From: Callorhinchus milii
Taxonomy: Eukaryota
Assembly (NCBI RefSeq): GCF_018977255.1
Contig: NW_024704746.1
Location: forward strand, 52,204,001 to 52,268,000
Direction: 5' to 3'
DNA: 64,000 bases
Made by a program: the position numbers. How positions within the stretch are numbered: the first letter of the stretch is position 1; every line of letters starts with the position of its first letter. Of the stretch, positions 21,001 to 24,000 are shown in pieces.

Positions 21001-24000
21001 GCGTATATTAGAGAGAAGGGAATAGAGATTAATATGAGAGAGGAATAGGAGCGGTGGAGGCTCGTGTGAAGTATAAACACCAGCCATGGATAATGTGGGC
21101 CAAATGACCTGTTTATGTTTTGTATTATTCTATGTCATATAAAGAATAATAGAACCAAGAGATGAGTTCTGGAATCCAATCAAGGAATTCAGGTGGATTA
21201 TACATAGAAAAAGGGATCCCCAGGAGTGGATTACAGACCAGGATCAAATTCTGGGGGAGAAAAGTTTATATATATATATAAAAAATGATCCTCATGAGTG
21301 AGTTACAATGCATTATCTAATTCAGGAGGGGGTGTAATTATATGTAGAATAACTGATCCCAAGAGTGAGCTACAAGCCAATATCCAATTTTGATGAGAGG
21401 GAGAGTATAAAGAGTAACTGATACCCAGGAATGATTTACTGAACAAAATTTAATTCAGGGATTTGGGGGCTATATACAGAATAACTGATCCCAGGAGTGT
21501 CTTTGAGACTAGTATATAATCCAGTGGTTCGGGGTTTCAAGTTGTGTATCCTGAGAATCATATGGTTGTACTAAATCGGAATTTTGTGTGGTTTATGTGT
21601 TTATGGTGAGTCACTCGGATGACTGTAAATTTATGCTGAACTCAGTGCACAGTCTCTGGTCAGAAGTTGTATAGTATTATTAGAGCAGTCAGGCATAGTG
21701 TACGTATGGTGCTGCAGAAGTCTAATGTAATGCACTCCCTTTGCAGGTTGAACATTGGAAAATAAATCCAATCCACAAGACTTTTGTTGGCTGTTTGTTC
21801 GATCCACTTGTTTCTTTGATAAAAGCTGAGCCCTAAACATGGACCAGCCTGTGACACGCAGACAAATTATAGATAATTGGAGGAAATGATGCTGCAACAT
21901 CACAGAGAAAGACAGGTTCAATTGTCTAAACAGCTGGCTGAGATAAGCAAAGTCATAGGAGAAGAGGGTGCAACGTGTAAGAGAGTGGAGAAGACTAAAG
22001 GGAGAAAAAGTCAAGAAGGGTTCTTCAGTGTGCACTCCCACTACAATCCAAGCACTGCATGTCAGTCACAGAAAAGGCTCATTGAGTCCAGGCAATTGCG
22101 CAAATCGCCTAAGAAGCTAAAGAAGCACATGGCAGATCAGTTCTTTCCCAGAATGAGCACAATTCATCTGGACCTGTACCAATGCGAGAAGAGGGAAGAT
22201 AAATGCACCAATCCTGAAAAGCTAATGAGTCAGCTGAAAGTTTGCATTATTAACAAATCCCAGGCTGTACAAGAGGTTCAGGACCCATCTAGATTGAAGC
22301 CACTTGGCCTTCAGATTCTCCAGGCAAATCCTGTTGTGGTTGAGGGTGTGTCTGTTCACTACAGTGAGACATCCAGAGTGAAAAGGCAAATGCACAGTGA
22401 ACAGCTGGGCCAGGATGGTCAGAGGAAGAGAACTTTGGAACCGATAGATAGTCGCCTGGAAAACTCAAAAAACGCTGCCCTGAAGAGCTGGATGTTTCAG
22501 AAGAATGCTCTTATCAGAAAAGAGAGCGCAGTGAAGATGAGGCAGAGGCAGCAGAAAGCTGAGGAACTGAAGAGACGAGAGAGCGATATGAAAAGGAAGC
22601 AGAAAGAGTCAGAGGAAAAAGTGAAAAAGTGGATGGAGAGAAAAAGAAAAGAAGGAAAAAAAGAAAAGATAGCAGTGAAAGTGGCTACAGTCCCAAGAAT
22701 ATTGAGTGTTGATGTTCAGATTATCAGCCGGAATATTAAGAGGTTGACTCCTGCATCAAGAGCAGACAGGAAATCCATCATTCAGAACTCATCAAGAGCC
22801 TGGAAGACTGACCAACAAGTAAATCAGAAAAGGCTGGAGAGACAGAGCTGGGGAAGTTTTGTCCCAGATCCAGGCAATCCAAGAACCAAGGTGTCTTCAC
22901 AACTTTCCACTGGTTCATTCTGGGAGCAAGTTGTGAATGCAGAGCCTGGTGATTGGGTGACTCAGAAGCCCAGCAGAGAGAAGACGAAGATGGCTGGGGC
23001 AATGGGTCAAGAAATTGAGGAAAATACAGGGTTTGAACCTACAGGTCAAAATTCAATTGCAAGATCCTTAGGCAGCACAGCTCAGGTGAAATACCTACCC
23101 AATGCCAGCCTCGACAAAAGTGTACAGCCTGTACACAGACTGTCCTTCAACCAGTGGCTGTCAAGAAAATCACAGAAAAAAACCCTGATGGTCAATGGAG
23201 AGGAGGTGGAATCAGACAGAGGTTTTCAAGATTTTCTCCCGAAACTTGCAAGAAAGAGAACAGAAAGCATAATGGATAGGAAAAAGAAGGCAGATGCAGT
23301 GTTAGAGTTTGACCGAGTAGCTAACCTAATGACAGCCCCTGAGTGCACAACAATCCCCCAGACCTCACACTGGGTAGGTAGCGCCAGACTAACTCCAGCG
23401 GTACAGAAACATTTCATGTACAGGTTAGTTGAGGATGCAGTTACAGGTGCAGGTGGTGATTCATTGGTACAAGGGAGGGAACGTGGCCCTGGGCAGCCAC
23501 AGAAGGCCCCTACAGCTCTGTGTGCAAAGTCCGCAGCTGGGGAAAGCCCCACTGGCTTTGTCCTCAAGTACAAAAGACATTTGCGAAGACCAGATCCACC
23601 GGGCAGGGAAAACCACCCAACTAATTGACCGCAAAAGATGGGCTTCCCCATCCATGTACACAGCGCACTTTGACTGAGCCAAGTCCGGGGTGGGGGTTGG
23701 GGGGAGCAACAAATGCATTGGATTCATATTTTATGGGAATACTGATGCAGCAGAGCAGTGAAAGCAATGTCAATCTCCACAATAAAGGAAATTACTGTCC
23801 ATTCTTTCCATCCTGCTTGGATCTGGATGGGCTGATGTAGCTGGGAGGGGAGTATTGTTGCTCCATTCCAGAATATTTTGATTGCAGACATTGACCAATA
23901 CCCCAATCAGTGTTCAGGCACCCTCAGGACACCACAGGTTCCATGCCCTCTGCATTTGGATCAGAATTCAGTTCCTGCTCCTGATCTCTATCCAATATCC

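What the first reader, a model, noticed from the sequence alone, without database searches (positions are those of the whole stretch)
21839..23628. Extra ~580-aa coiled-coil gene between NRIP2 and TEX52, not known to me from the mammalian locus
A long single-exon ORF free of TE motifs, with three widely spaced W-x-x-x-K amphipathic helices like those of the microtubule/sperm-flagellum proteins CCDC181, CCDC34 and MAP9. It is tail-to-tail with testis gene TEX52. It may be an ancient gene lost in mammals or a retrogene. This is the best candidate for an undescribed host gene in the window.
Basis: partly seen in the sequence, partly recalled or inferred. Interest (0 to 1): 0.7.

Follow-up and report, generated by a model that had tools for sequence, protein, structure and literature searches.

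The report
Probable microtubule-binding gene beside TEX52
A real, unique 580-codon open reading frame between NRIP2 and TEX52 most likely encodes a mostly disordered, basic protein whose one long charged helix carries tubulin-binding-type tryptophan-lysine motifs, making it a probable distant relative of the cilia and sperm-tail proteins CCDC34 and CCDC181.

Summary
The ORF is real: window 21886..23628 (+), 580 aa. This is not 21839, which starts a 16-codon upstream ORF in another frame. It is far longer than chance gives (583 open codons against a maximum of 224-277 in simulations). It has a coding-type period-3 signal (z 8.3), has no other copy in the window and matches no transposon domain. 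It lies convergent with TEX52, in the order NRIP2-like / X / TEX52 / FOXM1 / RHNO1.

The only family leads are weak. Pfam PF13904 (CCDC34) scores 17-19 bits, below the cut-off of 35, and covers profile positions 2-64 only. The protein-atlas neighbour scores 0.89.

AlphaFold2 gives one confident element, a helix at aa 187-255. It is highly charged and has no heptad core, so it looks like a single helix, not a coiled coil. Three PhixxWxxxK motifs are present. This is the beta-tubulin-binding repeat reported for MAP9. Two of them sit 47 residues apart on the same face of the helix.

Best reading: a divergent CCDC34/CCDC181-like microtubule-associated protein.

Orthologues, expression and selection could not be checked here, so "lost in mammals" and "undescribed" remain open. 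Moderate interest.

The parts
21886..23628 (+). Candidate coding sequence, 580 aa plus stop, uninterrupted (protein P0001)
   Evidence: Length is an outlier. Period-3 z 8.3, with the signal confined to aa 1-300. Unique in the window.
21839..21889 (+). Upstream ORF of 16 codons (MDQPVTRRQIIDNWRK) in another frame. Its TGA overlaps the main ATG (ATGATG).
   Evidence: A at -3 and G at +4 around its ATG are read. Any role in translation control is inference.
21745..21746 (+). Possible splice acceptor (tttgcAG|gttgaac) that would make 21747.. the last or only coding exon, with a 5'UTR intron
   Evidence: Read only. No transcript evidence.
22444..22650 (+). aa 187-255: the only confidently predicted element, one long charged alpha-helix (pLDDT 83-97)
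   Evidence: AlphaFold2, single sequence; no heptad core (best 9 of 22), 63% charged, 13 i/i+4 opposite-charge pairs. The Pfam PF13904 match covers aa 196-262.
22480..22503 (+). Motif 1, aa 199-206, LKSWMFQK (PhixxWxxxK)
22621..22644 (+). Motif 2, aa 246-253, VKKWMERK. It lies 47 residues after motif 1 on the same helix face (+20 degrees).
23146..23169 (+). Motif 3, aa 421-428, FNQWLSRK. It lies 175 residues after motif 2 in a low-confidence region.
23374..23628 (+). Last 85 codons, of doubtful coding status. A donor-like CTGG|GTAGGT at 23374 (phase 0) and CAG|GTTAGT at 23424. Few stops in any + frame here.
   Evidence: period-3 z 1.7. Not resolvable without transcripts.
23781..23786 (+). AATAAA, 153 nt after the stop
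24297..24302 (+). Second AATAAA, just before the first repeated element downstream (24371..)
27141..27719 (-). Neighbour: TEX52-type ORF (Pfam DUF4532), convergent with the candidate gene. The two stop codons are 3.5 kb apart.
   Evidence: E 9.3e-20, profile positions 20-164 of 279

Best explanation
A real protein-coding gene whose coding sequence lies in one exon. The protein is basic (K+R 111, D+E 65) and mostly disordered.

Its functional core is a roughly 70-residue, highly charged single alpha-helix (aa 187-255). The helix carries two PhixxWxxxK motifs 47 residues (about 13 turns, about 70 A) apart on the same face. A third motif lies 175 residues downstream.

I read it as a very divergent relative of the CCDC34/CCDC181 family (Pfam PF13904) of cilium and sperm-flagellum microtubule-associated proteins. 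By analogy with MAP9, each Trp/Lys motif would dock on beta-tubulin, so the helix would lie across neighbouring protofilaments on the microtubule surface. The basic disordered arms would add affinity or recruit partners.

Shown: the ORF, its coding signature, its uniqueness, the helix prediction, and the motifs with their geometry.
Inferred: family membership, microtubule binding, and a cilia or testis role.
For: - ORF length is an outlier.
- Period-3 z 8.3, reached by 0 of 300 shuffles. This is at or above the five known exons tested (z 2.6-6.4) and above all 8 intergenic controls.
- Unique sequence in a TE-rich region. Two AATAAA signals follow the stop.
- PF13904 is the top family for the 121-aa helix fragment: 18.8 bits, E 0.0014, aa 196-262 matched to profile positions 2-64. 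For the whole protein it ranks second, at 17.1 bits, E 0.0047.
- The nearest atlas cluster scores 0.89 with 185 of 256 shared features and carries PF13904 in 37% of its members. All ten best hits that have a family share that family or clan. With PF13904 left out, the best named cluster falls to 0.75 with 114 shared features.
- Helix 187-255 has pLDDT 83-97.
- Three PhixxWxxxK motifs, matched by 17 of 20000 shuffles. WxxxK at 4 of 8 Trp, matched by 117 of 20000 shuffles.
- Same-face geometry of motifs 1 and 2.
- MAP9 preprint PMC12667982 (section 5 and passages read). MAP9 is monomeric and binds through one long helix with five PhiXXWXXXK repeats. Phi and W contact beta-tubulin F389, and K contacts E412. 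Mutating the repeats abolishes binding.
- CCDC34 co-localises with ciliary and cytoplasmic microtubules (bioRxiv 10.64898/2026.10.27.762278, passages).
- CCDC181 is described as interacting directly with microtubules in a review that cites Schwarz 2017 (PMC12123824, passages).
Against: - The Pfam score is about half the curated cut-off (35 bits) and covers only 63 of the 169 profile positions. Charged helices attract spurious matches. I could not run a shuffled control, because changed sequences may not be submitted.
- The atlas score is below 0.9, which the tool calls a lead only.
- Phi is L and V in the two helix motifs, where MAP9 has mostly Y or F.
- The spacer is 39 residues, not 35-36. 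There are two repeats on one helix, not five.
- Period-3 signal is absent in aa 301-496 (z about 0).
- 465 of 580 residues have pLDDT below 50.
- No PDB relative: 0 hits for the whole protein and only chance-level hits for the two fragments.
- No CpG island.
- No evidence of expression, orthologues or selection.
- The MAP9 preprint does not mention CCDC34 or CCDC181 (0 occurrences of 'ccdc'). The link between PF13904 and the MAP9 repeat is my inference.
Confidence: 0.5

Rival explanations
1. A lineage-restricted, fast-evolving orphan gene. It is real and translated, but its likeness to CCDC34 and MAP9 is chance, arising from a K/E/R-rich helix that happens to contain tryptophans. Its function would then be unrelated to microtubules, for example a nuclear or chromatin basic protein of germ cells.
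For: All family evidence is below threshold. The protein is strongly basic, with KKLKK and RKRKEGKKEK patches. It is mostly disordered. There are no PDB relatives.
Against: Two independent methods single out the same family. Three full PhixxWxxxK motifs were matched by only 17 of 20000 shuffles. Two of them are in helical register on one helix.
Confidence: 0.22
2. The true coding sequence is shorter than the ORF or is spliced. The transcript would use an internal donor (23374 or 23424) or end early, so part of the 580 aa, at least the last 85 codons, is read-through of non-coding sequence.
For: Donor-like GTAGGT at 23374 in phase 0 and GTTAGT at 23424. All three + frames are almost stop-free after about 23460. 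Period-3 is absent from aa 301 onward. The tail is unstructured.
Against: The frame stays open for 280 codons after the period-3 signal fades, while the two other + frames carry 35 and 29 stops over the ORF. No downstream exon candidate was recognised. The atlas holds the full 580-aa version, but that may be a mere ORF call.
Confidence: 0.25
3. A non-functional open frame: a decaying retrocopy or pseudogene, or a chance ORF that is not under selection.
For: Intronless. No CpG island. Half of the ORF lacks period-3. No conservation or expression data are available.
Against: 583 open codons against a simulated maximum of 277. Strong period-3 in aa 1-300. No poly(A) tract after the ORF. Target-site duplications were not searched for. 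A recent retrocopy of CCDC34 or CCDC181 would match PF13904 over its full length above the cut-off, which it does not.
Confidence: 0.12
4. An ORF of a transposon or endogenous virus, for example a coiled-coil ORF1 or gag-like protein.
For: The window is rich in LINE and SINE copies, including an intact EN+RT ORF at 14065..17184(-). LINE ORF1 proteins are often basic and helical (my knowledge).
Against: No TE or viral domain in Pfam. No second copy of the DNA or protein in 64 kb, although neighbouring repeats have 20-27 copies. No flanking terminal repeats were seen. It is not adjacent to any RT ORF on its strand.
Confidence: 0.04

Closest known systems
CCDC34 / CCDC181 family (Pfam PF13904, formerly DUF4207)
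   Same: Best sequence-family lead for the helix and the best atlas neighbour. The layout is W-x3-K, a K/E/R-rich helix, then W-x3-K. Family members are microtubule-associated cilia and sperm-tail proteins. The gene sits next to a testis gene.
   Different: It scores 17-19 bits against a cut-off of 35. Only profile positions 2-64 of 169 are matched. The protein is 580 aa with long disordered arms. It lies at the NRIP2-TEX52 interval, whereas the human CCDC34 and CCDC181 loci are elsewhere (recalled, not checked).
MAP9 microtubule-binding domain (PMC12667982)
   Same: Same eight-residue motif PhiXXWXXXK repeated along a single, non-coiled-coil charged helix, with a disordered projection region.
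   Different: Two repeats on a roughly 70-residue helix plus one detached repeat, not five on a 200-residue helix. The spacer is 39 residues, not 35-36. Phi is L, V and F, not mostly Y or F. No sequence homology to MAP9 was tested, because no MAP9 sequence was available to me.
Single alpha-helix (SAH / ER-K) domains
   Same: 63% charged residues, 13 i/i+4 and 13 i/i+3 opposite-charge pairs in 49 residues, no heptad core, and a confident isolated helix.
   Different: SAH domains are spacers without conserved aromatic docking motifs. Here two Trp motifs punctuate the helix.

Membership tests
CCDC34/CCDC181 (Pfam PF13904) | Score at or above the Pfam gathering cut-off (35 bits) | tested here: not met
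   17.1 bits for the whole protein and 18.8 bits for the 121-aa fragment
CCDC34/CCDC181 (Pfam PF13904) | Match along the whole 169-position domain | tested here: not met
   Only profile positions 2-64 are matched. Fragments aa 290-430, 420-520 and 500-580 give no PF13904 hit.
CCDC34/CCDC181 (Pfam PF13904) | Nearest neighbours in protein-language-model space belong to the family | tested here: inconclusive
   0.89 with 185 shared features, and PF13904 on 37% of the cluster's members. The next named family scores 0.75. The tool rates anything below 0.9 as a lead only.
CCDC34/CCDC181 (Pfam PF13904) | Association with microtubules, cilia or the sperm flagellum | not testable with these tools
   Needs localisation or binding assays.
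MAP9-type microtubule-binding helix | Repeated PhiXXWXXXK motif | tested here: met
   Three copies, at aa 199-206, 246-253 and 421-428, matched by 17 of 20000 shuffles. Phi is L, V and F.
MAP9-type microtubule-binding helix | Repeats lie on one continuous monomeric alpha-helix | tested here: inconclusive
   Two of the three lie on helix 187-255 (pLDDT 83-97). The third is in a region with pLDDT about 50. Oligomeric state unknown.
MAP9-type microtubule-binding helix | 35-36-residue spacers between repeats; five repeats | tested here: not met
   The spacer is 39 residues (W to W 47), and only two repeats lie on the helix.
MAP9-type microtubule-binding helix | Sequence homology to MAP9 | not tested
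   No MAP9 sequence was available. PDB sequence searches returned no MAP9 chain.
Canonical coiled coil | Heptad repeat with hydrophobic a/d core | tested here: not met
   The best of 7 registers has 9 of 22 a/d positions hydrophobic, counting Ala.
Processed retrogene | Intronless copy with a poly(A) remnant, target-site duplications and an identifiable parent gene | tested here: inconclusive
   The CDS is intronless. No A-rich tract follows either AATAAA. Target-site duplications were not searched for. A parent gene could not be searched for. It is not a recent copy of a PF13904 gene.
Transposable element ORF | TE protein domain and multiple dispersed copies | tested here: not met
   No TE domain. 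No second copy in the window. Genome-wide copy number was not testable.

The most novel reading that the evidence does not exclude
The gene is an ancient whole-genome-duplication sister (ohnologue) of CCDC34. It would be retained beside NRIP2 in this non-mammalian lineage and lost in mammals.

From recall only, NRIP2, TULP3 and TEAD4 on human 12p13.33 have sisters NRIP3, TUB and TEAD1 on 11p, the arm that carries CCDC34.

Its stripped-down two-repeat helix would also reveal that the whole PF13904 family (CCDC34, CCDC181) binds microtubules in the MAP9 manner. That is, a single helix lies across protofilaments and docks a Trp/Lys motif on each beta-tubulin. The 47-residue period, one helical turn longer than in MAP9, might then suit a different lattice such as the doublet.
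Probability: 0.18. Interest if true: 0.55.

Novelty: new member of a known kind. Interest (0 to 1): 0.38.

Why it matters
If it is real and microtubule-binding, it adds a minimal, naturally occurring two-repeat version of the PhiXXWXXXK lattice-stapling helix. It would also tie the poorly understood CCDC34/CCDC181 male-fertility proteins to the mechanism just solved for MAP9. That link is not made in the papers I could search. It would also be a case of a cilia or testis gene present in the conserved NRIP2-TEX52-FOXM1 block of one vertebrate lineage and apparently absent from the mammalian block, which bears on gene loss after genome duplication. If it is only an uncharacterised predicted protein of one genome, it is a routine annotation item.

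Tried and rejected
- Complex prediction with two copies of aa 180-265, to ask whether the helix pairs with itself. The verdict was 'no answer', so it is not used as evidence either way.
- PDB sequence searches. The whole protein gave 0 hits at E up to 10. The helix alone gave 5 chance-level hits, E 0.35-10, all unrelated proteins. The aa 410-481 fragment gave 1 hit, to a designed repeat protein.
- The Pfam Raf1_HTH hit at aa 355-391 (19-22 bits, cut-off 27.3). I rejected it as chance. It is below the cut-off, falls in a disordered stretch, and belongs to a Rubisco-assembly family.
- Atlas structure neighbours (TM 0.13-0.19) are meaningless for a model with pLDDT 0.44.
- Fold search was not run, because the only confident element is one helix.
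- Search for further TEX52 exons. Of the minus-strand ORFs of at least 35 aa between 23.7 and 27.0 kb listed, I chose 10 and scanned them. None of the 10 matched DUF4532.
- Six other neighbouring ORFs, including the 165-aa antisense ORF at 23226..23723, gave 0 families.
- Literature. There were 0 papers for DUF4207, PF13904 or IPR025259. Searches for 'CCDC34-like', 'ccdc34l', 'ccdc34b', 'CCDC181-like' and 'MAP9-like' gave 2 listings, neither opened and neither relevant by title and abstract. The search for CCDC181 with cryo-EM and protofilament was badly posed and listed only unrelated papers. Schwarz 2017 (PMC5496667) is not held.
- A shuffled-sequence control for the Pfam hit was not run, because changed sequences may not be submitted.
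Full report
**Observation.** The window holds one uninterrupted frame on the + strand, from an ATG at 21886 to a stop ending at 23628, 580 aa. Stop to stop it is 21877..23628, 583 codons. The ATG at 21839 opens a 16-codon upstream ORF (MDQPVTRRQIIDNWRK) in another frame, and its TGA at 21887-21889 overlaps the real ATG. An in-frame TAA lies three codons before the ATG, so the coding sequence cannot be extended upstream within this exon.

**More than chance.** The longest stop-free frame was at most 224 codons in 100 Markov-1 simulations of the surrounding 29.4 kb. It was at most 277 in 1000 simulations using the ORF's own dinucleotide content. The observed value is 583.
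- The period-3 spectral signal of the ORF has z 8.3, reached by 0 of 300 shuffles.
- Five exons of neighbouring genes give z 2.6-6.4, and eight intergenic stretches give z -1.2 to 2.7.
- The signal is strong in aa 1-150 (z 4.3) and aa 151-300 (z 4.8). It is absent in aa 301-450 and 451-496 (z about 0) and weak in aa 497-580 (z 1.7).
- The second half is therefore supported only by staying open, while the two other + frames carry 35 and 29 stops over the ORF.

**Not a repeat.** Neither the DNA nor the protein has another copy in the 64 kb. The best blastn hit is 24 nt at E 0.09, and tblastn gives E of 5 or more. The stretch 19767-24370 has no repeated interval, although the flanking elements at 19411-19766 and 24371-24818 have up to 20 and 27 matches. 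Pfam shows no transposon or viral domain.

**Context.**
- Pfam identifies a TEX52-type ORF (DUF4532, E 9.3e-20) at 27141..27719(-) and RHNO1 (RHINO, E 5.4e-20) at 59809..60690(+).
- The exons at 46002..46691(-) and 32409..33272(-) match the two chains of the solved FOXM1 structure 6osw (E 3.6e-24 and 2.1e-19).
- These exons were searched one at a time.
- The ORF at 5052..5516(-) looks to me like NRIP2 exon 1, from recall only. Pfam gives nothing for it.
- I do not take the contig for human. It carries this extra ORF and a different repeat landscape, including an intact EN+RT LINE ORF.

**What the protein looks like.** It is basic (K+R 111, D+E 65). AlphaFold2 without an alignment gives mean pLDDT 44.6, with 465 of 580 residues below 50. 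The one confident element is a continuous helix at aa 187-255, pLDDT 83-97. The atlas's own model is equally poor. The helix has no heptad core: the best of seven registers has 9 of 22 a/d positions hydrophobic, even counting alanine. Its core is 63% charged, with 13 i/i+4 opposite-charge pairs in 49 residues.

**Motifs.**
- Of the eight tryptophans, four are followed by K at +4 (W202, W249, W357, W424). This was matched by 117 of 20000 shuffles.
- Three also have a hydrophobic residue at -3: LKSWMFQK, VKKWMERK and FNQWLSRK. This was matched by 17 of 20000 shuffles.
- The first two motifs lie on the confident helix. They are 47 residues apart (a 39-residue spacer), and their Trp, Phi and Lys positions fall within 20 degrees of each other on the helical wheel.
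- All three share M or L at W+1 and Q or R at W+3, read.

**Family leads.**
- Pfam's hit in the helix region is PF13904 (CCDC34). It scores 17.1 bits (E 0.0047) for the whole protein and 18.8 bits (E 0.0014) for a 121-aa fragment. The match is aa 196-262 to profile positions 2-64 of 169, and the curated cut-off is 35 bits.
- The other four fragments give no PF13904 hit.
- The nearest atlas cluster (0.89, 185 of 256 shared features) carries PF13904 in 37% of its members. All ten best hits that have a family share that family or clan.
- With PF13904 excluded, the best named cluster scores 0.75 with 114 shared features (EPSTI1).
- Two methods therefore point to the same family, but both are below their own thresholds.

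**Mechanism by analogy.** The MAP9 preprint (PMC12667982; section 5 read in full and further passages) reports the following:
- MAP9 is a monomer and binds microtubules through one long alpha-helix that runs across protofilaments.
- The contacts are made by five repeats of PhiXXWXXXK separated by 35-36-residue spacers.
- Phi and W pack on beta-tubulin F389, and K pairs with E412.
- Mutating the repeats abolishes binding.

The candidate carries the same motif on a helix of the same charged, non-coiled-coil kind. I therefore propose that its helix lies on the microtubule surface and bridges two neighbouring protofilaments, with the third motif on a flexible tether. There are differences. It has two repeats on the helix, not five. 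The spacer is 39 residues, about one helical turn longer. Phi is L and V, where MAP9 has mostly Y or F.

The family context fits. CCDC34 co-localises with ciliary and cytoplasmic microtubules (bioRxiv 10.64898/2026.10.27.762278, passages), and its loss causes sperm-flagellum defects (the same passages and PMC12123824). CCDC181 is reported to bind microtubules and is needed for sperm flagellum formation (PMC12123824 passages; PMC11491787 passages). The original microtubule-binding paper was not held.

The MAP9 preprint does not mention CCDC proteins (0 occurrences). No paper in the library uses the Pfam or InterPro identifiers of the family. Linking PF13904 to the MAP9 repeat is therefore my inference. 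Supplementary figures of PMC11491787 (domain and motif maps of CCDC181) and the extended-data images of the MAP9 preprint could bear on this, but I could not see them.

**Gene anatomy (inferred).**
- A possible acceptor (AG at 21745-21746) precedes the ORF.
- The upstream ORF, in a good start context, would lie in the 5'UTR.
- AATAAA signals follow the stop at 23781 and 24297, the second just before the first downstream repeat.
- There is no CpG island (observed/expected CpG 0.11-0.39 across 20500-24499). This fits a tissue-restricted promoter but proves nothing.
- Donor-like sites at 23374 and 23424, together with the weak coding signal and lack of structure beyond aa 496, leave open that the last 85 codons are not coding.

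**Rivals.**
- An orphan gene with only chance likeness to the family remains plausible (0.22).
- A shorter or spliced coding sequence is possible and is compatible with the main reading (0.25).
- A non-functional ORF is unlikely given its length and period-3 signal (0.12).
- A recent retrocopy of CCDC34 or CCDC181 is excluded by the poor, partial profile match.
- A transposon ORF is unlikely (0.04).

**What stayed unchecked.** The open genome collection holds only bacteria and archaea and was not used. I therefore could not look for orthologues in any vertebrate, test synteny, measure selection or see expression. Whether mammals lack the gene, and whether it already has a name in another species, remains open. 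The atlas holds the 580-aa sequence letter for letter. That shows only that a record of the same sequence exists, possibly from this same genome.

**Verdict.** This is a real and probably functional gene. It is best filed as a new, very divergent member of a known kind, the Trp/Lys-motif helical microtubule-associated proteins of the CCDC34/CCDC181 type that work like MAP9. Membership is not established.

Noticed in passing
window 21839-21889 (+): A 16-codon upstream ORF with A at -3 and G at +4. Its stop overlaps the main start codon (ATGATG). This arrangement could throttle or couple translation of the main ORF if it lies in the 5'UTR.
   Followed up: partly
window 21199-21527: A degenerate tandem array of 66-72-bp units (5 copies, 68-71% identity to the reference copy) about 360 nt upstream of the start codon. 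Tandem Repeats Finder did not report it.
   Followed up: partly
window 14065-17184 (-): A 1039-codon open frame with endonuclease and reverse-transcriptase domains. It is an apparently intact LINE ORF2, with many fragments of related elements elsewhere in the window.
   Followed up: partly
window 19411-19766 and 24371-24818: A short interspersed repeat family with up to 20-27 matches in the 64 kb brackets the unique 4.6-kb island that holds the gene. A tRNA-like sequence at 4682-4753(+) is the only Rfam hit in the window. It may be the head of such an element.
   Followed up: no
window about 47600-51050: More than 3 kb of simple sequence just upstream of the FOXM1 5' exon. A G-rich tract is open in several frames as poly-Gly or poly-Pro, followed by a long GT-rich microsatellite (GC 0.63, AT skew -0.67). 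It contains two N runs, which were left untouched.
   Followed up: no
window 29850-30144: A 46-bp tandem repeat of 6.4 copies with 99% matches, inside overlapping open frames on the minus strand. It is young or homogenised.
   Followed up: no
window 27141-27719 (-): The TEX52-type ORF covers only profile positions 20-164 of 279 of DUF4532 and then meets a stop. None of the 10 minus-strand ORFs I chose between 23.7 and 27.0 kb matched the rest of the profile. This species' TEX52 may be shorter, or its C-terminal part may be divergent.
   Followed up: partly
window 23226-23723 (-): A 165-codon antisense open frame overlaps the 3' end of the candidate gene. It has no Pfam match. This part of the sequence is poor in stops in several frames, so it is probably compositional.
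   Followed up: partly
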